IMG/VR virus record: IMGVR_UViG_2529292920_000016
DNA length: 32,229 bases
Strand: one strand, 5' to 3'
Origin: a virus
Taxonomy: Duplodnaviria; Heunggongvirae; Uroviricota; Caudoviricetes
The notes below the pieces were generated by a model. That model was given only the letters and a program-made list of their open reading frames with translations, was not told where the DNA came from and did not search any database. Below, one piece after another: positions 1,419 to 14,331 of the stretch (positions within the stretch are counted from its first letter, which is position 1; each line of letters opens with the position of its first letter). A program made the translations under genes and the position numbers.

Positions 1419-3890
1419 TTAAAAATCAGCCTGATTCGGGATCAGTTTTTGCCAGATAGCTGAAACGTATTTTGCCTGGTGACGAGCGTCATCAAGTGCA
1501 TTATGGCGCTCACCTTCGAATGGAATAGCCGTTCTGGCATCGAAGTCTATGGCTTTCCCCAGCTCAACGATTGTGCGTACATCGCGATCGTTGTAGTAAC
1601 GCCACGGGCAGGGGATCCCCTGCCGTTCGTATGAACGGCGCAAAATCGTGTTGTCGAAGTTGGCTCCATTTCCCCAAACCTGAACAAAAAATTCACCGGA
1701 GTTTTCGTCGATAAATTCCCGCAATTGTAACAGTGCATCATCTAACGGGATTTCATCGGTCATAATGGCAGATTGCGCTTCGCGTGATTGCTTAAGCCAC
1801 CATTTAATGGTGTCCCGATCAATGACTCCGCCAGCAGTTTCCAGATCGATAGTCTTACTAAATTCCGGTCCCATATCTCCGGTTTGCGGATCGAAAAATA
1901 TTGCACCTATTGAGATGATCGGGGCATCAGGATTTTTTCCCATGGTTTCAAGGTCGATCATTAGATGGTCACACGTCCTGCTGGTGGATGTGATTTCGTG
2001 ATGACCGTTCACCTTAATTGAGTGATCTGCCGTCTCGCCAGTCTCATTATCGCTATTGTGATGCTGATTGCCGCCAGTGTTCTCCTTGTGTGGATGCTCA
2101 GCGCCTTCCATTTCCTCCGGATCATCTTCCTGAACTTCAACCTGATACTCTTCATCGAATGTTTCCTGGTATGTTGCGTCGCCCATCACCGCACCACAAT
2201 CAGGGCAGTTGCCGCCGCCGGTCTGACCGCAGGCGGTGCAGACTTTTTCCACTTCCTGTTGCACTACTGGTTCAGGTAGTTTCGTTTCTGGCTCGTTTTG
2301 TTGCGTATTTGGGCTGTTTTGTTCCGCTTTCTGGTCGTTCTGTTCCGTTTCTTGCTGGTTCTGGTTCACAGAATCGCGGGTTTCAATCCCCTTCACCCAT
2401 TTCGGATCATTCGGATCGCTAACCCCTGCAACAAATTCACCACGTGATACTGCAAGCAGTTCATCGGCGTCAGGCTGGCTGATATTGGCTGCCTGCATAA
2501 TTTTGTTTACTTCGTCAGCGGTAACTTTTACCGGCCCTGGTTGTGCGGTCGTGTCAGATGCACCAGTATTTTGTTGTGAACCTGAGTATGTACCGTTTTT
2601 GCGGGCGAAATATTCTTCTTTCGTGATTTCAGTAGCCCCTGTAGCCAGTGCCTTATCCAGACCAGAAAGTTTGTTTGCGCGACCGTATTTTTCGCTATCC
2701 TTGTCGGTGAAGAGGAAGTAGAACGGCCCTTCACGCTCTACAGATGGTTCGACTTCCACTTTGCATTCGGTTTTTTCGTTGTCTGGAATTGCCGTTTCCA
2801 CTGCATCAGTTTCTGGTACTGGCGACGAGAGAGTATCAGTTGCGCTCTGATTTCTTCCTTCATCTTCAAACACGCCCTTTGTAGTCAGGTATTCAGTAAT
2901 GTATTTGTTCAGTGCCACAGGGTCTTTGTGAATGTCGATCGGACGTTCACGGACAAGGCCAAAAATAGTCTGGCGGTCGTAGCGAAGGGCATCAGGCTGT
3001 TTGCGCATTGATGCCGAGATACGCTTCCAGTCTTCGCGGTCGTTGTCGATAACTTCTTTTTTTGCCCAGCGATGGATGCTGCCGTCAATGTTTCCGGCAT
3101 CCACATCACCAGGCCAGAGAGCGTAGGCCAGTTCGTCATCCAGTGTTTTCCATGTCTGCTTGTATTCGCGATGAGTGGCAGCAATGACCGGGCTGATTTT
3201 TCCTGTTGAATTTTCAGTGTTCTGTTGATTGGCTCTGGCGCGGGCGAGATCAACAACAGACGTGTATTTTCCGGTTTCCTTGCGTTCACCTTCGCGACGT
3301 TTTTTCCAGATGCGCATCTCTGCCTGAATTTCGGGCCATTTGGCACCAGGCTTACATTTATGCTTAACCCACCCGATGGCATGCAGCTTAAGCTCCGGAT
3401 ACATGGCGTTAACTTCTGGCATTTTCATCAACGCTTCAACGATATGTCCGTCGAATGTTGCCATGTCTTCCTGCAACAATTCCTGTGCGCTAATCACCAT
3501 ATCAACGGTGATGTTTTCACATGTGTCGAACTTAACCATGACAGCGTTCTGTACTTCAGGGGCCAGCTTGTCAAAAGTGACGTTCATCGGATCGGATTCA
3601 GTCTCAACCGGGACAAAAGAAGCAGAATCCTCATCCCAGCGGTTTTCCTGCATATATTCAGCATCCCATGAATCGAGGGCAGGGCGGGGTATGCCAGGTT
3701 TATCCTCGCAGACAATAAATTTATAAGCGCAGTCCTGAGCAGCCGGATAATGTTCCAGGAATTGCCAGTGAAATTTTGCTCGAGCACGGCGTTCGTCGCC
3801 AGCTTCAATGGCTGTGGCTACAGCCACAGCGCCTTCTTCCCTTGTTGCCAGTTCGTCAGGAATAGCGGCGCAAATAAAGACTTTACTCAT
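1419..3890 (-). CDS. ydfE: Large early-left protein with C-terminal DEDDh 3'-5' exonuclease domain (full-length YdfE-like)
   Basis: ATG 3890 has GAGG 9 nt upstream. C-terminal motifs: MIDLETMG, WGNGANFDN, HNALDDARH. Central CTACG...CPDCG zinc ribbon and a Q/N/E-rich linker. The N-terminal ~300 aa match my recollection of K-12 YdfE. Confidence 0.8.
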   Translation of the reverse strand: MSKVFICAAIPDELATREEGAVAVATAIEAGDERRARAKFHWQFLEHYPAAQDCAYKFIVCEDKPGIPRPALDSWDAEYMQENRWDEDSASFVPVETESDPMNVTFDKLAPEVQNAVMVKFDTCENITVDMVISAQELLQEDMATFDGHIVEALMKMPEVNAMYPELKLHAIGWVKHKCKPGAKWPEIQAEMRIWKKRREGERKETGKYTSVVDLARARANQQNTENSTGKISPVIAATHREYKQTWKTLDDELAYALWPGDVDAGNIDGSIHRWAKKEVIDNDREDWKRISASMRKQPDALRYDRQTIFGLVRERPIDIHKDPVALNKYITEYLTTKGVFEDEGRNQSATDTLSSPVPETDAVETAIPDNEKTECKVEVEPSVEREGPFYFLFTDKDSEKYGRANKLSGLDKALATGATEITKEEYFARKNGTYSGSQQNTGASDTTAQPGPVKVTADEVNKIMQAANISQPDADELLAVSRGEFVAGVSDPNDPKWVKGIETRDSVNQNQQETEQNDQKAEQNSPNTQQNEPETKLPEPVVQQEVEKVCTACGQTGGGNCPDCGAVMGDATYQETFDEEYQVEVQEDDPEEMEGAEHPHKENTGGNQHHNSDNETGETADHSIKVNGHHEITSTSRTCDHLMIDLETMGKNPDAPIISIGAIFFDPQTGDMGPEFSKTIDLETAGGVIDRDTIKWWLKQSREAQSAIMTDEIPLDDALLQLREFIDENSGEFFVQVWGNGANFDNTILRRSYERQGIPCPWRYYNDRDVRTIVELGKAIDFDARTAIPFEGERHNALDDARHQAKYVSAIWQKLIPNQADF

Positions 3891-5175: not shown

Positions 5176-5304
5176 TCAGCCGTTAGATTTTGCCGAACTG
5201 GAAAGTGCCTGTTTAAATTCGCTGAAGCTGAGAGCTTCTTCGCCTTCGGCAAGACCTTCGAAGTATTCTTCGTAAGCCTTTTCCATGATTGTGTCGAAAT
5301 CCAT
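5176..5304 (-). CDS. ydfB: YdfB-like 42-aa protein
   Basis: Below the ORF-track length cutoff. ATG 5304 gives MDFDTIMEKAYEEYFEGLAEGEEALSFSEFKQALSSSAKSNG, with the stop at 5176-5178. It starts 1 nt after the ydfA stop. Confidence 0.65.
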   Translation of the reverse strand: MDFDTIMEKAYEEYFEGLAEGEEALSFSEFKQALSSSAKSNG

Positions 5305-5305
5305 A

Positions 5306-5461
5306 TCACCCACCTGAATTTCTTTCCAGCCAGCGACGCGCTCCAGATTCGGTTTTAAACGTTTTGCTTTTGGTATACGTCATCGCGGTGAACGTACCGT
5401 CCTGGTTGGGGAACACGCCACATACCAGAGATTCGCTGTTGCCAAGATCGATAGTATCCAT
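5306..5461 (-). CDS. ydfA: YdfA-like 51-aa protein, first gene of the leftward early operon
   Basis: Internal ATG 5461 with a GAGG RBS gives MDTIDLGNSESLVCGVFPNQDGTFTAMTYTKSKTFKTESGARRWLERNSGG. The longer track ORF start has no RBS. Confidence 0.7.
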   Translation of the reverse strand: MDTIDLGNSESLVCGVFPNQDGTFTAMTYTKSKTFKTESGARRWLERNSGG

Positions 5462-7912: not shown

Positions 7913-8366
7913 GCAGAAAATCCGACAGGTCTGCCGCCAGTGCATGGACCGCTGCCGGGCGGGTGAAACATGGCCTCCGGACCTGGCTGAGTTTGTGGCG
8001 CTGATTTCTGAAAGCGGAGCCAATCCATTCGGTCTGACGGTGGATGCCGTGATGGAGGAGTACCGTCGCTGGCGCAACGAGTCCTGGCGATACGACGGGA
8101 GCGATAAATACCCGTGGTCTCAGCCTGTGCTGTATCACATTTGCCTCGAGATGCGTTCAAAGGGGATTGAGCGGCAGATGACCGAAGGGGAGTTAAAACG
8201 GCTTGCAGAACGGCAGCTGACGAAATGGGCAAAGCATGTTAGTAACGGCCTGAGTGTTCCGCCAGTCCGGCGACAACTGGCGGCACCCAAACGCCCGTCG
8301 GGGCCAACGCCAATTGAGTTGCTGAAACAGGAATATGAACGCCGGAAAGCGGCTGGGCTTGTCTGA
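7701..8366 (+). CDS. Replication protein P-like helicase loader
   Basis: ATG 7701 has AAGGGGG 6 nt upstream. Blocks ETWPPDLAEFVALI and YPWSQPVLYHICLEM align with lambda P as recalled. Overlaps the O-like gene by 212 nt in another frame. Confidence 0.7.
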   Translation: MQQHQVTPHHGQFRKFGQHVSSGNVKTDLSATETAWKLWELMGEVYSNRWTQKNGAAPSKLWIAQIGAMTEQKIRQVCRQCMDRCRAGETWPPDLAEFVALISESGANPFGLTVDAVMEEYRRWRNESWRYDGSDKYPWSQPVLYHICLEMRSKGIERQMTEGELKRLAERQLTKWAKHVSNGLSVPPVRRQLAAPKRPSGPTPIELLKQEYERRKAAGLV

Positions 8367-8398
8367 GTTGAGAAGTAATTTTTACCGGGAGGAAATTT

Positions 8399-8673
8399 AT
8401 GGAGACTGTTTTTGACGCACTGAAAGCAATGGGAAAAGCCACATCCATAGAACTTGCTGCGCGCGTGAAGAAGTGCTGAACGAACTATGGGAACTGAAAA
8501 AGGCTGGTTTTGTTGATAAAAGCGCGTACACCTGGCGTGTGGCTGATAACAACGTTCAGCAGGAACAGCCAGCGCAGGCAGAACTGCCGGAAGAAACCAC
8601 CACAATGAGTGAAGTTATGCAGCGCATACTGGCATTTTATCAGGGAAATGTTCGATATTTTAGACGTTACTAG
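8399..8673 (+). pseudogene. DUF1627-like winged-helix gene split by a frameshift
   Basis: GGAGG RBS, then ATG 8399 gives [26 protein letters not shown] (stop at 8477). It continues in another frame as [19 protein letters not shown]... to 8673. One missing base near 8465 would join the two pieces. Confidence 0.55.
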
Positions 8674-9045
8674 ATTAAAGAGCATTAGTTCAGATGTGAA
8701 TTGACATTGTGTGGCACAGGGTTGGGCTAGCGTGGGGGTTTGCTTTGTGTAAGAAACGGATGCTCTGCAAATTACTACTAATGCTTAATGTTAGTCTGAT
8801 CTGCTCCCCGATGATTAATACACCGCTATGTTAGTAATGTCTGTAGATCGCTGTGTGTTGCATCCATCGGTTGACCCCACAGTCCAAACCAGACTGTCAG
8901 CTTTGATTCGATTCTATCTACTCAACCTGTCAGGTAATGTCTGAGCTAATACACAGAGTACGGCTATCGCGAACTTTAAGCTAGGTATCTGATACGCACC
9001 GTTCACTTGGTCGTACTTCTTGCACTGACTAGCTATCGTGCGCAG

Positions 9046-9094
9046 TTATTTATAGGTAATCTCCAGTGTATAATTTTCCAACTTATGGGAGATT
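9046..9094 (+). promoter_or_regulatory. Promoter with flanking inverted repeat for the 280-aa gene
   Basis: TATAAT at 9069-9074 is directly preceded by TG. There is a weak -35, TTATTT, at 9046-9051. Inverted repeat AATCTCC (9058-9064) / GGAGATT (9088-9094) brackets the -10 and start site. Confidence 0.55.
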
Positions 9095-9112
9095 GTAAAA
9101 CAGGAGGAATAT

Positions 9113-9955
9113 ATGAGGAAAAAATCGTTTGGACGTTGCCCGTTTGATTTCGACGAAGATGTAAAAAAAATAGCCGCGATAAATAAATATATCCATGCGA
9201 AATTTGAGAGGCATAAAAATAAAATAGATAACCTAAAGGGGGTGGAACAAAAATTGATGGTTTTACATTACTTTAATGTACTGAATGAACTTAGTAATCA
9301 GGCTATATTTTCTTTGAGTACCGGAGCCTTTTCAGCATCGGAAGTATTAACTAGAGTTATAATGGAACAGGCTGCCAATCAATTTTATATAGCAATTGAT
9401 GATGGAAAAAATGCACAAGCATTACTCAAGGGTAGTAAGAAATTAGTTCATAGTAATGGGAAACGGTGGCTGGAGTGTTTAAAATCCAAAGAAATGACTA
9501 ATCCAGCAGCAGATGAAAGGATTCGTATCGGAAAAGAGCTAACTGATATGTTTAATAGATTGTGGCCAAATACACCTGAATATCCTGGAACCAAAAAGCT
9601 TTTCGAAGTAATTGGCTGGGAAACACACTATCATGCCTATTACGTCCCTCTTTGTGATTCAATACATACATTCTCTGATGATATGGCAAATATAGTATCT
9701 CTATATAATGCAATCCAAAGCGATAAAACTACTGCTATCGAACTCACTCTTGCAGTTAAACAAGAAAATAAACGGCTGGCAATTTATAATGTCGTAATTG
9801 CTATTGGCCTGCGGTGTGAGGCCTTAGTAAATGTATTTAACTCTTTAGGTTATCGAGATATTATAACTGAAATGGCGCCAACAATAGATGCAGTCAACCA
9901 GATTATAATTCGATATGATGATTTCGAACATTCCAGAATTTTTTATTGTCAATAA
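9113..9955 (+). CDS. Orphan 280-aa helical protein of unknown function (cargo gene)
   Basis: AGGAGG RBS at 9102-9107. Long uninterrupted ORF, visibly AT-rich relative to the backbone. I recognise no TM segment and no nucleotide-binding or nuclease motif. Confidence 0.8.
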   Translation: MRKKSFGRCPFDFDEDVKKIAAINKYIHAKFERHKNKIDNLKGVEQKLMVLHYFNVLNELSNQAIFSLSTGAFSASEVLTRVIMEQAANQFYIAIDDGKNAQALLKGSKKLVHSNGKRWLECLKSKEMTNPAADERIRIGKELTDMFNRLWPNTPEYPGTKKLFEVIGWETHYHAYYVPLCDSIHTFSDDMANIVSLYNAIQSDKTTAIELTLAVKQENKRLAIYNVVIAIGLRCEALVNVFNSLGYRDIITEMAPTIDAVNQIIIRYDDFEHSRIFYCQ

Positions 9956-10060
9956 TTAATTGGCAGAATTCGTACATGCACAACAACTAGTTATAGTTGA
10001 CCTATTTCGCTCTTGAGAGACAACCATACTCAAATCTTCCACATTGCAGGAGATTTGAGT

Positions 10061-10581
10061 ATGAATACGTCACCGAGGAACAAAGACAGTATCATAGGCC
10101 CAAAAAGACCACTTCAGATATCTCATATCTGGGGGCTCCAAATCCGGCTTGAACTGGAAGGTAAAACGCGTGATTTAGCTCGGTTTCAAGCAGAGCTACG
10201 GTGCTGCAACTGAAAAACTGGCAGTCCTATCCAATTTGAGATAACCAAAGGGACAAGAGAAGCTGTTTCTGCATTGATAAAGCTTGGCAATTTACGCAGT
10301 AAAGACTACTTGTTCCGATCTCGGGTCGGTACTAACCAACACATATCAATCCTGCAATATAACCGAATCTTTCATAGGGGGGAGAAAAGCTTGGTCTCGA
10401 AGATTCGCTTTACAGCACACATTCCATGAGAAGAACAAAACCTTGCCTTGTCTGCAAGAAAACTAAGAATCTCCGGGTGATCCAACTTCCGTTGGGCCAT
10501 AAGAAAACGGAAAGCACAGTTCGTTATCTGGGTATAGAAGTTGATGATGCATTAGAGATCTCTGAATCGATCGAAGTCTAA
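10061..10581 (+). pseudogene. Degraded short tyrosine recombinase
   Basis: GGAG RBS, then MNTSPRNKDSIIGPKRPL.... In-frame TGA at 10211 next to an apparent internal deletion. Frameshift in the G6 run at 10377-10382. The tail reads THSMRRTK...LGHKKTESTVRYLGIEVDDALEISESIEV*. Confidence 0.7.
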
Positions 10582-10993
10582 AGCTGTCAGGGCTGCAGCA
10601 GCAGCCCTGTGCCAAGAGCGTACCAATATATGTCTCAAAAAATTGGGCACAGGTCAATATCAATACCAACAACTCTGATTGTGCTCATGTGATTTACTCC
10701 TGTAGAAAACGCAGACAGTAAAAATATTTCACTGGCTGCTTCAGACAGGGCGTCCATCATATCATTACATAACAATAGCGGGGCACGATATCTAGACATG
10801 CAGCAACGATGGACATAGAATGAGTACAATCAAAAGCATGTTTAACTACTTTAATTTAAAAATCTTAGAATCTTAGGTGTAGAGTTCAATACTTAGTTAC
10901 ATACCCTTTTGAAAGCATCACAAATCATAACTATGAGCCTGTTAAAGGCATAGGTATTCTTAATTAAGAGCATTTTAATGAGAGAAAAATAAA

Positions 10994-12367
10994 ATGAAAA
11001 GACTATATTATACCCATCATGATAGTCGAACCTTAAAACTTGCTATAGAAGGTGATGTTTCTGATAATGCGAATATTTTTACAGTAATTGTAGGTAAAAA
11101 TGGCGTTGGAAAAAGCAGATTGTTATCTCAGATTGCTAAAGACTGTATTCAAGATATTCATTTCTTGAAAACTTTTAATCCATTATTTGACAGAGAAATA
11201 ACACCAAAGTTAATTGCCGTATCTACCAGCCCATTCGATAAATTCCCTCCAGGGCGTAGGTCATTAAATCACCAAAGGAAAGAAAATAATTATCGCTATG
11301 TGGGTATGCGTGGAGAAGGCCCCTTCGGCGTATCAAATGCCGTATCCCTTTTATCTTCAGCAGCGAGAGGTTGGCTAGAGAAACTTGCTTATTCAGAAAA
11401 TCCTGCAAATTTACTCGATGTTTTTCATTCTATTGATTTTGAGCCCCATATAGAGTTTGTATTTAAACCAACTTACAACGGACCGGACACTCCTGACTAT
11501 AACTTCATTGGTGTATATTCAGATGAGATATTAACGGAAGTTAAGGAGTTATATTTAAAATACAATATAAAAATTGACAGGAAGAATATTGAGAGTCTCT
11601 TAAAGTTAAACTCCGAATCACGTCATGATATTTACGAAGCACTGGTTGAAATTAATCGATTTGAACCTGAACGTAGGGCTGTAACCTTGTCAGTCGATTT
11701 TACCAATGGTGAAACATTGGTTGGCTCGACTTATGCGAATAATTATTTTTCTAGATCAATTCTTAAACTTATGAACGCTGGCTTCATGAGATTGATGGAT
11801 ATGCGACTCATAAAAAAAAGCTATGGTCCCATGTCACTTAAACGTGCGAGCTCGGGAGAACAATGTTTATTAGTGATGTTGCTTGGAATTGCAGGGCATA
11901 TAACTGATGGTTCTATAATACTAATTGATGAACCGGAAATAAGCTTGCATCCTCGATGGCAGGAAGAGTTTATCATTATGTTAACAAAAGCATTTTTAAC
12001 TTACTCAGGTTGTCAATTCATAATTGCAACTCATTCACCACAAATAATATCCAATTTGCCGAATAAAGGTTGTTATATAACATCTTTGTCGAAAAGTTAT
12101 CTTTATAAAGCAAAATACTTTAGCAACCGGTCTGCAGACTATCAACTTGCGGAACTATTTGATGCCCCTGGCATTATGAATGAATACATTGCCAGATTAG
12201 CTTTCAATTTACTTTCAAAAGTTAAGACTGCTAAGTTAGTAACAGATGATAATTGGCGTGAATTAAAACAACTCCAGCTTCTCCTTGAAAACGTTAATAG
12301 TAATGACCCTATTAATGAACTCGTAAATTCCGTATCTCAGGTGTGTGAAATTTATGCCAAAAATTAA
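10994..12367 (+). CDS. ABC/SMC-type ATPase, Septu PtuA-like
   Basis: Walker A GKNGVGKS (aa 34-41), signature-like ASSGEQ, Walker B IILIDEPEISLH and ATHSPQ His-loop. There is a long helical insert between Walker A and the signature. AT-rich. Confidence 0.8.
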   Translation: MKRLYYTHHDSRTLKLAIEGDVSDNANIFTVIVGKNGVGKSRLLSQIAKDCIQDIHFLKTFNPLFDREITPKLIAVSTSPFDKFPPGRRSLNHQRKENNYRYVGMRGEGPFGVSNAVSLLSSAARGWLEKLAYSENPANLLDVFHSIDFEPHIEFVFKPTYNGPDTPDYNFIGVYSDEILTEVKELYLKYNIKIDRKNIESLLKLNSESRHDIYEALVEINRFEPERRAVTLSVDFTNGETLVGSTYANNYFSRSILKLMNAGFMRLMDMRLIKKSYGPMSLKRASSGEQCLLVMLLGIAGHITDGSIILIDEPEISLHPRWQEEFIIMLTKAFLTYSGCQFIIATHSPQIISNLPNKGCYITSLSKSYLYKAKYFSNRSADYQLAELFDAPGIMNEYIARLAFNLLSKVKTAKLVTDDNWRELKQLQLLLENVNSNDPINELVNSVSQVCEIYAKN

Positions 12368-12983
12368 AAATCCAATTAGATTCAGCGCAGAGTCATTAGA
12401 TATTATTGAGAAAAAATTGTCTTCTCCAGATTTTAAGCATACCAACTGGGGAGATGATGATTTGCAAGTTCTCCGTGCAGAAATTAGAAATCATTACAGA
12501 GAAGAACAAAAGCTAGAATGTGTATATTGTCATGAGCCTATTGGGGTAAGAGCTGCACAAGCTGCTCCTATAGAGCATATTGTGCCAAAATCTCAATATC
12601 TATGTTTTATTTTTGAACCTAAGAATCTATGTGTAGTATGTCCTGACTGCAATGAATTCAAAGGTAAAAATGAAGTGTTATTTGAACCCGTAATAAATGG
12701 GGGGCGGCGCAAAAACTATCCAACTGCATCTGCATCATTTCGCATCGTTCATCCACATATAGATGATTATGAGATGCATATTATAAAAGCAAATCGTGTT
12801 TATGTGGACAAAACACCTAAAGGGCACTATACCATTGGAATATGTAAACTAAATAGATTTTTTCATTATTTTGGGATGTGTGATGAATTTGTTAATGATG
12901 CAAAAATTGCTGAGGCAAATGAAAATTTTTTCAAAAAGGTAGTATTACTACTAATGAATTATTGGATGATGACATTCATTTGA
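12354..12983 (+). CDS. HNH endonuclease, Septu PtuB-like
   Basis: ATG 12354 (or GTG 12345) overlaps the ATPase stop. HNH motif: CVYCHEP...IEHIVPKS...NLCVVCPDCNEFKG. Confidence 0.8.
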   Translation: MPKIKNPIRFSAESLDIIEKKLSSPDFKHTNWGDDDLQVLRAEIRNHYREEQKLECVYCHEPIGVRAAQAAPIEHIVPKSQYLCFIFEPKNLCVVCPDCNEFKGKNEVLFEPVINGGRRKNYPTASASFRIVHPHIDDYEMHIIKANRVYVDKTPKGHYTIGICKLNRFFHYFGMCDEFVNDAKIAEANENFFKKVVLLLMNYWMMTFI

Positions 12984-13242
12984 TTTAACTATGAATTATT
13001 ATATTGTAAAGTAATCAGGTAAGATATGTTAGACAGTGAGACTATTGCCTTACAGAATTCATTATTCTTATGGATCGCCTTTCTGACTGATTTCATATTG
13101 GCGGGGTAACGGGAGTTAAGTAGAATGGCTGCGGGTGCTTGAGGCTATCTGTCTCAGGCATGAACACCAAAGGCAGATAGAGAAAAGCCCCAGTTAACAT
13201 TACGCGTCCTGCAAGACGCTTAACATTAATCTGAGGCCAATT

Positions 13243-14331
13243 TCATGCTAGACACATGTAGGTTAGCCTCTTACGTGCCGGAAGGCAAGGAGATGTATGG
13301 GTCCACCACATATTGCAATTTTTATTCTCTTTTAAAATATATTCCACGGGCGTCATTAGTGCGAGCGCCTTGTGGGGTCTTTTGCTGTTATACAGCACCA
13401 GATATTCCGCCAGCTTCTGGTTAAATAGCGCCAGATCTTCAAAGAGTAAAATCTCATTAAATTCAATAAACTGCTCTCTTAACGTCCGGTTAAAACGTTC
13501 ACAGATAGCGTTCATTTTTGGCGTGTAGGGATAGGTCCAGAGGTGTTTGATAGCGGCTTCCTGCAGCGTTTTGTCGAAGTTTCCCAGGAACTCTTTTCCG
13601 TTATCTGTGATTATCTGGCTGATACCGACCGGGAACAACCGGGCTGCGCGGCTGAAGAAGTGATTGACGATATCACTGTTGAGTGACGGCACAGCCAGCG
13701 CCAGCGCGTAATTGCTGCATTCGTCGATCATGGTGATGACATAGCGACGCAGTTCGCCCATTCTGAGCTCAATGGCGTCCATCCCAATGAGCTCACCTGT
13801 CTTTACCGGGCGGTAGTGCTTTGGCCTGCGGGGTTTGGCAGACCGCTTTTTGACAAGCAGTGCCTTCCCCCGCGATCCCAGACGCACAGGTATCATCCGC
13901 ATTTTATCATGTGCGGCAGCGATCATTCTGCCGATGGTGGAAACACTCGGACAGGCCAGATAGCGCTGTTCGCACCAGGGCTTCAGGCGAACAAAAATCT
14001 GCTCTTTACCGAGGTTCGGCAGCTCTGTCCTGAGGCGTCGAATCTCTTTCAGCACATCGGGATGCCAGTGTTTTTTTCGTCGCACCAGAGGTGCCTTACT
14101 GTGCGGGATTAGCCCCTCAGGTCCTTCCTTGTTCAGTAACTGACGCCACCAGTAAAGCGTGCGGCAGGACACGCCAAAGGCTTCAGAAGCTGCAGAAATA
14201 CCGTGTTTATCCCAGAAGTGCAGAGCCTTCATTCTCATTGTTGCTATATCAGCCATCACTGAAAGCCTCAACGCATAATCGGCCGTTTGGTAGTACTTAG
14301 GATAGCCAACCATCAGATGCTGCATTTGCAT
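13243..14331 (-). CDS. DDE (rve-type) transposase, IS481-like single-ORF architecture
   Basis: 362-aa ORF with an N-terminal HTH. DDE candidates are GMDAIE, ITDNGKEF and NAICERFNRTL. The family guess is from architecture only. Confidence 0.75.
   Translation of the reverse strand: MQMQHLMVGYPKYYQTADYALRLSVMADIATMRMKALHFWDKHGISAASEAFGVSCRTLYWWRQLLNKEGPEGLIPHSKAPLVRRKKHWHPDVLKEIRRLRTELPNLGKEQIFVRLKPWCEQRYLACPSVSTIGRMIAAAHDKMRMIPVRLGSRGKALLVKKRSAKPRRPKHYRPVKTGELIGMDAIELRMGELRRYVITMIDECSNYALALAVPSLNSDIVNHFFSRAARLFPVGISQIITDNGKEFLGNFDKTLQEAAIKHLWTYPYTPKMNAICERFNRTLREQFIEFNEILLFEDLALFNQKLAEYLVLYNSKRPHKALALMTPVEYILKENKNCNMWWTHTSPCLPARKRLTYMCLA

What the first reader, a model, noticed from the sequence alone, without database searches (positions are those of the whole stretch)
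8674..9045. ORF-free, CTAG-rich, strand-asymmetric 370-nt segment upstream of the orphan gene
- No ORF of 60 aa or more exists on either strand, and stop codons are dense in all frames.
- CTAG, which is strongly avoided in E. coli DNA, occurs four times (8670, 8727, 8981, 9029).
- The plus strand looks T/G-rich and A-poor.
- The 10-mer GTAATGTCTG recurs at 8834 and 8933. My hand estimate is roughly 0.1 expected chance pairs in this length.
- ATGTTAGT recurs 40 nt apart (8788 and 8828), each copy followed by related CTG..ATC.GCT strings.
- A TTGACA sits at 8701.

This is not typical intergenic DNA. It could be a non-coding RNA partner of the downstream gene, an att or recombination scar of the cassette that brought the orphan gene and the dead integrase, or fully decayed coding DNA.
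Basis: seen in the sequence. Interest (0 to 1): 0.55.

Follow-up and report, generated by a model that had tools for sequence, protein, structure and literature searches.

The report
Transposon-end scars at a prophage cargo hotspot
The ORF-free segment is not an RNA gene but a patchwork of leftover mobile-element ends, and two of them belong to a widespread family of transposase-less cargo transposons that carry accessory and defence genes into prophages, plasmids and islands of enterobacteria.

Summary
The window is a lambdoid prophage of E. coli E2348/69.

- 8681-~8752 (-) is a decayed "type-2" end of a transposon. It is fixed in more than 2000 E. coli lambdoid prophages, directly after the replication module and before variable cargo.
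- 8797-8842 is a solo left inverted repeat of an IS3-family IS.
- 8877-8953 (+) is a well-preserved "type-1" end of the same transposon family.
- 8954-9112 is the upstream region of the DUF5677 gene, with a TGTATAAT extended -10.

The family has asymmetric ~80-bp ends, TGT...ACA termini and 7-bp target-site duplications. It carries 0.3-5 kb of cargo and no transposase. It occurs in many enterobacterial genera, on plasmids, and in phage P2, where it brackets Z/fun.

The window's pair has no duplication and one mutated terminus, so it is an immobile recombinant scar. I found no Rfam match, no unusual fold stability and no conservation beyond the neutral rate.

The ncRNA and decayed-coding readings are rejected. 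"Recombination scar" is roughly right. The transposase that moves the family was not found.

The parts
8473..8673 (+). Tail of the frameshifted DUF1627 pseudogene, the last gene of the replication module. Context only; its stop TAG (8671-8673) overlaps the CTAG at 8670.
   Evidence: RefSeq annotation of NC_011601.1; ORF list.
8681..8752 (-). Decayed type-2 end of the cargo-transposon family. The outer terminus at 8681 reads AGC instead of TGT. It contains the TTGACA (mutated CTGACA repeat), the CTAG at 8727 and the GGCACAGGG...CTTTGTG hairpin arms.
   Evidence: CM hit 8676-8708(-). Type-2 HMM hit 8682-8721, E=0.023. Better-preserved lambdoid copies align full length at E~2e-4, and the P2 copy at E=1e-12. 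The same flank occurs after the replication module in 2498 E. coli genomes.
8753..8796 (.). Unassigned spacer specific to this lambdoid lineage. It is absent from the P2-like homologue, where the type-2 end abuts the IS end.
   Evidence: Alignments.
8797..8842 (+). Solo left terminal inverted repeat of an IS3-family IS (orfA begins MKKRFSDEQII in intact copies). The outer end TGA at 8797 is the exact left limit of the block shared with P2-like prophages.
   Evidence: ~90% identity to plasmid loci where the same 46-49 nt directly precede an IS3-family transposase CDS. No second copy or IRR in the window.
8843..8876 (+). Internal (cargo-side) sequence next to the type-1 end. It is homologous to the same position in Klebsiella plasmid pKP187.
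   Evidence: Alignments.
8877..8953 (+). Well-preserved type-1 end of the cargo-transposon family. It has two CTGTCAG repeats and an intact terminus ...GTCTGAGCTAATACA (ACA at 8951-8953), and it faces the DUF5677 gene.
   Evidence: CM 74.9 bits, E=2e-21; type-1 HMM E=4e-15; alignment with copies from plasmids and many genera.
8954..9112 (+). Upstream region of the DUF5677 gene, lying outside the transposon end. Candidate extended -10 TGTATAAT at 9067-9074 and RBS AGGAGG at 9102-9107. The left arm of a 35-nt inverted repeat lies at 9026-9060.
   Evidence: Sequence. 12-14% divergence from the P2-like copy, equal to third-codon-position divergence. Inverted repeat. The promoter is inferred, not shown.
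9113..9955 (+). DUF5677 gene (280 aa), the gene that this block accompanies.
   Evidence: Pfam PF18928, E=3e-9; no PADLOC hit; present with 8797-9112 in 56 genomes.
10061..10581 (+). Small tyrosine recombinase pseudogene. Only its first ~100 nt are part of the block shared with P2-like prophages.
   Evidence: RefSeq annotation; alignment.

Best explanation
The segment is non-functional junction DNA at the left edge of a prophage cargo hotspot, assembled from the ends of two kinds of mobile element.

**Proposed history**
1. An ancestral lambdoid phage received, just after its replication genes, an insertion of a transposase-less cargo transposon (a 'mobile insertion cassette').
2. That element's type-2 end became fixed in the phage backbone and decayed (8681-8752).
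3. Later, a block entered next to it. The block consists of a truncated IS3-family left end, a few tens of bases of another cassette's interior, that cassette's type-1 end, the DUF5677 gene with its own promoter, and the start of a small tyrosine recombinase gene.
4. The same block sits inside the resident cassette of P2-like prophages, at the Z/fun position.

**Status of each step**
- Shown: the homology of each piece; the family's architecture (one type-1 plus one type-2 end, TGT...ACA termini, 7-bp target duplications, no transposase inside); and the absence of a duplication around the window's pair.
- Inferred: the order of events; the route of entry (recombination between shared ends or an IS3-mediated event, because the joint is exactly at the IS end); and the claim that the pair cannot move now.

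The only likely present-day function in the interval is at its right edge and beyond: the DUF5677 promoter around 9045-9080.
For: **Mosaic structure**
- 8674-~8771 matches 2498 E. coli genomes at 74-88% identity. There it lies directly after the DUF977 or DUF1627 replication gene and before unrelated cargo: QueH, an FRG protein, hypotheticals.
- 8797-8842 matches 2841 plasmids where it precedes an IS3-family transposase.
- 8797-10164 is shared at 83-97% identity, piece by piece, with P2-like prophages, between genes G and FI.

**Family**
- An ~80-nt core with unrelated flanks occurs on plasmids and in many enterobacterial genera.
- The model search found 106 copies.
- In the roughly 20 pairs inspected row by row, a (-) copy lies on the left and a (+) copy on the right, one of each type, 0.3-5.3 kb apart.
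- 7-bp duplications were read directly in L070 (AATAATT), L046 (AATAATA) and L080 (CTTAATA).
- Over 29 listed pairs, 105 of the 121 flank positions compared (pairs with at least 4 readable positions) are identical, against a 54% mean and 68% maximum with shuffled partners.
- No transposase ORF lies inside the pairs.

**Phage P2**
- The type-2 end lies right after G, the type-1 end lies before FI, and Z/fun sits between them.
- The P2-like prophage of MS7163 keeps only the outer ~38 nt of that resident type-1 end.

**Window pair**
- The flanks are ATTAAAG and CAGAGTA, and one terminus reads AGC instead of TGT.

**Against an RNA or constrained element**
-.
- Divergence at 8955-9045 is 14.3%, against 11.4% at third codon positions.
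Against: - The window's own type-2 copy is weak (E=0.023-0.19). Its assignment rests on better-preserved lambdoid homologues and on the P2 copy.
- No transposase for the family was found, so 'transposon' rests on architecture and duplications alone.
- 8843-8953 is somewhat more conserved between the two E. coli haplotypes (about 5% divergence) than third codon positions (11.4%). This could reflect residual function, for example an outward promoter or a binding site, or it could be chance on 112 nt.
- Strict co-travel of 8797-9112 with DUF5677 is also what a cis-regulatory element would show.
- No expression data were available.
Confidence: 0.8

Rival explanations
1. The segment, or its right two-thirds (8797-9045), is a cis-regulatory leader or small RNA that controls the DUF5677 gene. 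On this reading it travels with the gene because the gene needs it.
For: - 8797-9112 accompanies DUF5677 in 56 of 5426 E. coli genomes, in two different phage backbones.
- 8843-8953 diverges less than third codon positions.
- The type-1 end points at the gene.
Against: - Only two haplotypes exist, so linkage explains the co-travel.
- 8877-8953 is a family member found beside unrelated genes in both orientations.
- No Rfam hit and no excess fold stability.
- No compensatory pairs on the + strand, and only one-off double changes at 3 of 16 predicted pairs on the reverse strand, where several other pairs are broken.
- 8955-9045 evolves at the neutral rate.
- The candidate promoter lies downstream, at 9067-9074.
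Confidence: 0.1
2. The pair of ends is still a live recombination substrate. A trans-acting transposase, or homologous recombination between ends shared by phages, plasmids and islands, uses it as a landing pad that swaps cargo at this hotspot.
For: - The same type-2 end sits at the edge of variable cargo in more than 2000 lambdoid prophages and in P2-like phages.
- The type-1 end in the window has an intact terminus.
- Some copies sit on very short contigs, 1.8-2.9 kb (L046, L074, L101). This may mean they are repeated within their genomes, but copy number was not measured.
Against: - The window's type-2 terminus is mutated and there is no duplication.
- About 60-88% identity over 70 nt is poor substrate for homologous recombination.
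- No transposase was identified, and no polymorphism consistent with recent movement of this pair was seen: all 17 full-length copies are at least 99% identical.
Confidence: 0.08
3. The segment is an attachment or recombination site of the adjacent dead tyrosine recombinase. On this reading it marks the edge of a cassette moved by site-specific recombination.
For: - A recombinase pseudogene follows DUF5677 in both phage contexts.
- A 35-nt imperfect inverted repeat (27 of 35 matches) at 9026-9060 and 10764-10798 brackets DUF5677 plus the pseudogene.
Against: - In P2-like prophages the shared block ends inside the recombinase gene and lacks the right arm.
- The left limit of the block is an IS3 terminus, not a repeat of any core site.
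- The family's pairs carry 7-bp duplications and inverted ends. That is the signature of transposition, not of integrase-type recombination.
Confidence: 0.02

Closest known systems
Mobile insertion cassettes (MICs), e.g. MIC231 of Bacillus cereus and the qnrD and qnrS2 mic elements, and MITEs
   Same: Two terminal inverted repeats bracket passenger genes, or nothing. There is no transposase inside, and a target-site duplication shows transposition in trans. This is the definition quoted in PMC3913671.
   Different: - The ends here are long (~75-80 bp), asymmetric (distinct type-1 and type-2 ends) and carry internal repeats.
- The duplication is 7 bp in AT-rich targets. The qnrD-mic has 24-bp repeats and a 2-bp duplication.
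- The source transposase is unknown.
- The window holds only a dead, recombinant pair.
Ends of Tn7/Mu/Tn552/Tn5053/IS21-type DDE transposons (recalled from general knowledge, not tested against sequences)
   Same: 5'-TG...CA-3' termini, left and right ends that differ, and repeated subterminal motifs that look like transposase-binding sites (two CTGTCAG per end).
   Different: - The 7-bp duplication does not fit Tn7, Mu or Tn5053 (5 bp). By memory it fits Tn552 (6-7 bp) and lies within the IS21 range.
- No transposase or ATPase gene was found next to any copy.
IS3-family insertion sequences
   Same: 8797-8842 is ~90% identical to the left terminal repeat that directly precedes orfA (MKKRFSDEQII...) of IS3-family copies on IncFIB and other plasmids.
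   Different: Only 46 nt remain. There is no transposase, no right end and no identifiable duplication in the window.
The P2 Z/fun moron locus and phage-encoded defence hotspots (Rousset et al. 2022, PMC9122126; Nilsson et al. 2004, Mol Biol Evol 21:1, not readable here)
   Same: The DUF5677 block occupies exactly the P2 G-FI (Z/fun) variable locus in ~38 E. coli genomes. In the window it sits in an analogous lambdoid hotspot next to a Septu system.
   Different: The main text of Rousset et al. contains none of the words 'inverted repeat', 'intergenic' or 'transpos'. It proposes cos-proximal recombination for the hotspots it describes next to cos. Here the Z/fun locus is bracketed by the two ends of a cargo transposon. 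Whether Nilsson et al. described these boundaries could not be checked.

Membership tests
Cargo transposon / mobile insertion cassette family defined here | One type-1 and one type-2 ~80-bp end in inverted orientation | tested here: met
   Window has type-1 at 8877-8953(+), E=2e-21, and a decayed type-2 at 8681-8752(-), E=0.023-0.19, supported by lambdoid homologues at E~2e-4.
Cargo transposon / mobile insertion cassette family defined here | Outer termini TGT...ACA | tested here: inconclusive
   The type-1 terminus ACA is intact at 8951-8953. The type-2 terminus reads AGC at 8681-8683 (TGC in L006 and L007).
Cargo transposon / mobile insertion cassette family defined here | 7-bp target-site duplication flanking the pair | tested here: not met
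   The window flanks are ATTAAAG and CAGAGTA, so the pair is a recombinant, not one insertion. The feature is met in the family: 105 of 121 flank positions are identical.
Cargo transposon / mobile insertion cassette family defined here | No transposase between the ends | tested here: met
   Only 124 nt lie between the ends in the window. No transposase ORF lies inside pairs elsewhere, apart from unrelated secondary IS insertions.
IS3 family insertion sequence | Terminal inverted repeat starting with TG, homologous to the IRL of annotated copies | tested here: met
   8797-8842 against L004 and L010, where it precedes the IS3-family transposase CDS.
IS3 family insertion sequence | orfA/orfB transposase and a matching right inverted repeat | tested here: not met
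   No second match to the terminal 13- or 20-mer in the window with up to 2-3 mismatches. No ORF follows.
Known structured RNA families (Rfam 15) | Covariance-model match | tested here: not met
   No match in 8300-11100 beyond three chance-level eukaryotic hits at E>5, none inside the segment.
Structured non-coding RNA in general | Fold more stable than shuffles, and compensatory base changes | tested here: not met
   z = +1.14 and +0.55. Zero of 13 + strand pairs show double changes. On the - strand, 3 of 16 pairs show single-sequence double changes and many pairs are broken.
Integron attC site | R''/R' core sites (RYYYAAC ... GTTRRRY) bounding an imperfect palindrome | tested here: not met
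   By inspection of the family consensus, no such cores are present. The copies also come as inverted pairs with duplications.
Tn7/Mu/Tn5053-type transposons | 5-bp target duplication, and a transposase plus ATPase encoded inside | tested here: not met
   The duplication is 7 bp. No such genes lie in or beside any copy examined. The family features themselves are recalled from general knowledge.

The most novel reading that the evidence does not exclude
The ~80-bp type-1 and type-2 ends define a large family of non-autonomous cargo transposons that has gone essentially uncharacterised. The family has TGT...ACA termini, makes a 7-bp duplication in AT-rich targets and relies on a transposase supplied in trans.

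On this reading the family is a general vehicle that places 'morons' and anti-phage genes into prophage hotspots. Examples seen here are P2 Z/fun, the lambdoid replication-hokD gap and the site upstream of the lysis genes. It also reaches plasmids and integrase islands across Enterobacterales and some other Gammaproteobacteria.

The finding's segment would then be one fossil of that traffic. Fixed solo ends in phage backbones would be what makes these loci hotspots.
Probability: 0.4. Interest if true: 0.75.

Novelty: new member of a known kind. Interest (0 to 1): 0.5.

Why it matters
For the window itself the result is deflationary. The odd-looking segment needs no RNA or regulatory story, and annotation should mark it as mobile-element remnants plus the DUF5677 promoter.

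The wider point is more useful. How phage-borne hotspots exchange defence and moron genes is an open question. In P2 it has been attributed to recombination near cos.

- The classical P2 Z/fun locus is bracketed by the two ends of a cargo transposon.
- A major lambdoid hotspot starts with a fixed solo end of the same family.
- The family leaves 7-bp target duplications in many genera.

Together these give a concrete, testable mechanism: transposition in trans, followed by recombination between shared ends. They also give a sequence handle, two ~80-nt profiles, for finding cargo genes, many of unknown function, at single-cassette resolution.

Tried and rejected
**Ruled out**
- Rfam at E<=10: nothing relevant.
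- RNA folding of 8843-9060 on both strands: not better than shuffles.
- Consensus folding of eight copies on both strands: weak structures and no convincing covariation. The apparent column covariation reflects two subfamilies, not pairing.
- A hairpin with apparent compensatory changes in segment A, first read as an RNA or terminator. It turned out to be the internal palindrome of the type-2 end.
- Integron attC, Xer/dif and oriT ideas: no defining motifs.
- Coding remnant: the substitution pattern is not 3-periodic and stops occur in all frames.
- The IS481-family element at 13243-14331 as the source of the ends: its flanks show no similarity.
- The promoter scan found nothing on the + strand in the segment. 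The TGTATAAT extended -10 fails its -35 rule.

**Led nowhere**
- Search for a matching IS3 right end in the window: none.
- Search for the family's transposase. ORFs inside and beside pairs or solo ends in L019, L025, L041, L043, L055, L062, L066, L068, L078 and L079 hold only cargo or unrelated IS3, IS30 and IS110 insertions.
- Literature searches by sequence string and by '7-bp duplication', 'mobile insertion cassette' and hotspot terms found no description of this family.
- M27PP1 of ST131 (7-bp repeats, GC-rich target, integrases) looks unrelated.
- Nilsson et al. 2004 could not be read.

**Caveat on the genome scan**
By my own estimate, the genome-collection pattern scan is expected to yield roughly 90 chance hits. 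Only the 59-nt matches in Gammaproteobacteria, confirmed by the model, were used.

Full report
**Where the window comes from**

The window is identical to E. coli O127:H6 E2348/69 (NC_011601.1) around 1.27 Mb. It is a Qin/Rac-type lambdoid prophage. The gene order is:
- exonuclease, dicB and ydfABC;
- repressor, cro and ydaT;
- replication genes and a frameshifted DUF1627 pseudogene;
- the segment in question;
- a DUF5677 gene (9113-9955);
- a broken small tyrosine recombinase;
- a Septu system, PtuA and PtuB at 10994-12983;
- an IS481-family transposase;
- hokD, rem and the late genes.

**Checking the observation**

- There is no ORF of 60 aa or more.
- CTAG occurs at 8670, 8727, 8981 and 9029.
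- ATGTTAGT occurs at 8788 and 8828.
- TTGACA occurs at 8701.
- The 10-mer is at 8834 and 8934, not 8933.
- The strand is T-rich (31%) but not A-poor or G-rich.

The statistics are less striking than they look.
- Three CTAGs are what the local trinucleotide content predicts (2.7 expected).
- The CTAG enrichment belongs to the whole imported block 8670-13248, which holds 11 of the window's 17.
- A repeated 10-mer appears in 5% of shuffles.
- Neither the 10-mer pair nor the CTAGs at 8981 and 9029 is conserved in the closest homologue.

**The segment is a mosaic**

BLAST against 5426 complete E. coli genomes splits the segment into pieces with different histories.

*Piece A (8674 to about 8771).* It is present at 74-88% identity in 2498 genomes. 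In the loci inspected it lies directly after the last replication-module gene (DUF977 or DUF1627). It is followed by unrelated cargo (QueH, an FRG-domain protein, hypotheticals) and then hokD. It is the fixed left edge of a lambdoid cargo hotspot.

*Piece B (8797-8842).* It matches 2841 plasmids. There the same 46-49 nt directly precede the orfA start of an IS3-family transposase, MKKRFSDEQII. It is a solo left inverted repeat. No right end and no second copy exist in the window.

*Piece C (8797 to about 10164).* It is shared at 83-97% identity, piece by piece, with P2-like prophages. There it lies between the tail-fibre assembly gene G and the sheath gene FI, the classical Z/fun variable locus. 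The left limit of the shared block is exactly the outer TGA of the IS3 end.

**The conserved core is a transposon end**

Within piece C, 8877-8953 also matches intergenic DNA on Klebsiella, Citrobacter, Yersinia and Salmonella plasmids. The flanks there are unrelated on both sides. A pattern scan of one genome per species recovered copies from many genera:
- enterobacterial genera: Erwinia, Proteus, Rahnella, Yersinia, Serratia, Pantoea, Kosakonia, Citrobacter, Salmonella, Xenorhabdus, Brenneria, Cedecea and Buttiauxella;
- other genera: Acinetobacter and Colwellia.

By my own estimate this scan should also return roughly 90 chance hits. I therefore used only the 59-nt matches that a sequence profile built from eight copies confirmed.

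The profile search gave 106 copies and a consistent architecture.
- A reverse-strand copy lies on the left and a forward-strand copy on the right, 0.3-5.3 kb apart.
- In the roughly 20 pairs I checked row by row, the two copies of a pair belong to two distinguishable subfamilies.
  - Type 1: GCTCAAAGCAGACTGTCAGATTTGATTGTGTGCTGCCAGTGAAAACCGTCAGATCAAGTCTGAGCTAATACA.
  - Type 2: GGCACAGAGCTGCCTGTCAGATTAGGTTTGGCTCTGTGCC...GTGTCAGGTCAAGTCTGAGCTAATACA.
- The outer termini read TGT...ACA.
- Each end carries two CTGTCAG repeats.

Reading the flanks directly shows 7-bp direct duplications:
- AATAATT in L070;
- AATAATA in L046;
- CTTAATA in L080.

The script listed 29 pairs. In those with at least 4 readable flank positions, 105 of 121 positions are identical. 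With shuffled partners the mean is 54% and the maximum 68% in 2000 trials. Targets are AT-rich.

Between the ends lie cargo genes.
- Read from the translated ORFs, not by a domain search: an E1/JAB-type cluster, an OLD-like ATPase, an AbiH-like protein, a GIY-YIG protein, a nucleotidyltransferase-like protein and many unknowns.
- By record annotation: DUF4440 with GrpB, and DUF4160.

I found no transposase apart from unrelated secondary IS3, IS30 and IS110 insertions. This is the definition of a mobile insertion cassette: inverted repeats, a target duplication and no transposase (PMC3913671).

**Piece A is the other end**

The same profile hits the P2 backbone immediately after gene G on the reverse strand. 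It also hits piece A of lambdoid prophages, weakly. I built a type-2-only HMM without any phage copies and obtained these scores:

| Copy | E-value | Extent |
|---|---|---|
| P2-like | 1e-12 | full length |
| Two better-preserved lambdoid flanks | about 2e-4 | full length |
| A third lambdoid flank | 1.5e-4 | partial |
| The window's copy (8682-8721) | 0.023 | partial |

The window's copy has AGC where the terminus should be TGT. The hairpin I first took for an RNA element is the internal palindrome of the type-2 end.

**P2 itself**

In phage P2 the type-2 end sits right after G, a type-1 end sits just before FI, and Z/fun and orf30 lie between them. The flanks AATAAGT and AATCAGG agree at 5 of 7 positions, as expected of an old duplication.

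In the P2-like prophage that carries DUF5677, only the outer ~38 nt of the resident type-1 end survive. The IS3-end, type-1-end, DUF5677 and recombinase-fragment block is therefore cargo inside P2's resident cassette. The type-1 end next to DUF5677 is a foreign one brought in with the block. In that copy it is followed by a typical target, TCTAATA.

**What the window's segment is**

From left to right:
- a decayed resident type-2 end (8681-8752);
- 44 nt of lineage-specific spacer;
- a 46-nt IS3-family left end (8797-8842);
- 34 nt of cassette interior, also seen in pKP187 (8843-8876);
- an intact-looking imported type-1 end (8877-8953);
- the DUF5677 upstream region (8954-9112).

The pair has no shared 7-mer (ATTAAAG against CAGAGTA) and one dead terminus. 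It is therefore a recombinant scar, not a single insertion.

Because the joint in both phage backgrounds is exactly at the IS3 terminus, an IS3-mediated event is one likely route of entry. Recombination within a once-intact IS or between cassette ends is another. This is inference.

**Is anything in it functional?**

Between the two E. coli haplotypes, divergence is as follows:

| Region | Divergence |
|---|---|
| Third codon positions of DUF5677 | 11.4% |
| 8955-9045 | 14.3% |
| 9046-9112 | 11.9% |
| IS3 end (8797-8842) | 8.7% |
| Type-1 end (8877-8953) | 6.4% |
| Spacer (8843-8876) | 3% |

The slight excess conservation of 8843-8953 rests on 112 nt and is marginal. There is no Rfam hit, no excess fold stability and no convincing covariation.

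The block 8797-9955 occurs in 56 of 5426 genomes, always whole. With only two haplotypes, that is linkage, not proof of need.

A TGTATAAT extended -10 at 9067-9074 and AGGAGG at 9102-9107 make the last ~70 nt the probable promoter and leader of DUF5677. This is inferred from sequence only. The simple promoter scan did not call it.

**Wider distribution**

Type-1 ends occur in 1248 of 5426 E. coli genomes, usually once per genome. In the three loci inspected they sit at classical moron positions:
- after two small genes at the end of a prophage tail module;
- around a DUF4160 gene in the O157:H7 tRNA-Leu island;
- right after a TolA-like moron upstream of the lysis genes.

**Comparison with known systems**

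The family behaves like a mobile insertion cassette or MITE. The TG...CA termini, unequal ends and subterminal repeats recall Tn7/Mu/Tn552/Tn5053/IS21-type elements. That resemblance is from general knowledge, not tested.

The 7-bp duplication excludes the 5-bp families. By memory it fits Tn552 or the IS21 range.

I could not identify the transposase. I also could not read Nilsson et al. 2004, whose title suggests the P2 boundaries may have been noticed and attributed to site-specific recombination. The main text of Rousset et al. 2022 contains none of the words 'inverted repeat', 'intergenic' or 'transpos'.

**Verdict**

- The ncRNA and decayed-gene interpretations fail, and 'recombination scar' is roughly right.
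- The segment itself is ordinary junk with a promoter at its edge.
- The family it exposes is the interesting part, and whether it is new remains to be checked.

Noticed in passing
window 10994-12983: A complete Septu system lies 1 kb downstream of the DUF5677 block, in the same hotspot. PtuA scores E=2e-165 and PtuB E=6e-82 against PADLOC.
   Followed up: partly
window 9026-9060 and 10764-10798: A 35-nt imperfect inverted repeat (27 of 35 matches, each arm containing CTAG) brackets the DUF5677 gene plus the dead small tyrosine recombinase. It may be a recombinase site pair. The right arm is absent from the P2-like version.
   Followed up: no
window 9113-9955: The DUF5677 protein has no hit in PADLOC 2.0. 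Even so, it sits at defence hotspots in two unrelated phage families (lambdoid, next to Septu, and P2 Z/fun). It is a candidate defence gene of unknown mechanism.
   Followed up: no
L102 (phage P2, NC_070905.1) 3613-3696 and 5283-5365: The classical lysogenic-conversion locus Z/fun with orf30 of phage P2 is bracketed by a type-2 and a type-1 end of the cargo-transposon family. The flanks AATAAGT and AATCAGG look like an old 7-bp duplication.
   Followed up: partly
L108 (E. coli HS30-1) 8604-9076: A TolA C-terminal-domain moron just upstream of the lysis genes essD and rrrD of a lambdoid prophage is followed immediately by a type-1 end. This suggests that morons at the pre-lysis site also arrive on these cassettes.
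   Followed up: partly
L068 (Colwellia sp. MB02u-6) 1873-1943 and 2799-3803: A divergent copy of the end lies beside an integron-integrase-like gene followed by small GNAT-type genes. This recalls the way Tn402-type ends flank class 1 integrons.
   Followed up: no
L013 3145-4086 and L041 690-1619: Rpn/YhgA-like (PD-(D/E)XK 'transposase_31') genes lie immediately outside an end in two unrelated loci. This may be coincidence, or a lead to the missing mobilising enzyme.
   Followed up: no
window 13243-14331: An IS481-family transposase is inserted between Septu and hokD. A sister genome (2013C-4974, L003) lacks it, and there another IS3-family element has instead replaced everything left of window position 8848.
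   Followed up: partly
L004 1405-2437 and L010 ~3017-3062 (IncFIB plasmids): The IS3-family copies whose left end matches 8797-8842 lie downstream of repB on two IncFIB plasmids. In L004 the copy sits beside a small tyrosine recombinase pseudogene. That plasmid neighbourhood may be the source of the IS3-end and recombinase parts of the DUF5677 block.
   Followed up: no
L046, L074, L101 (contigs of 1.8-2.9 kb): Copies of the ends, two of them complete cassettes (L046, L101), sit on very short contigs. This may mean they are multicopy, and so recently active, in those Citrobacter, Rahnella and Enterobacter genomes. Copy number was not measured.
   Followed up: no
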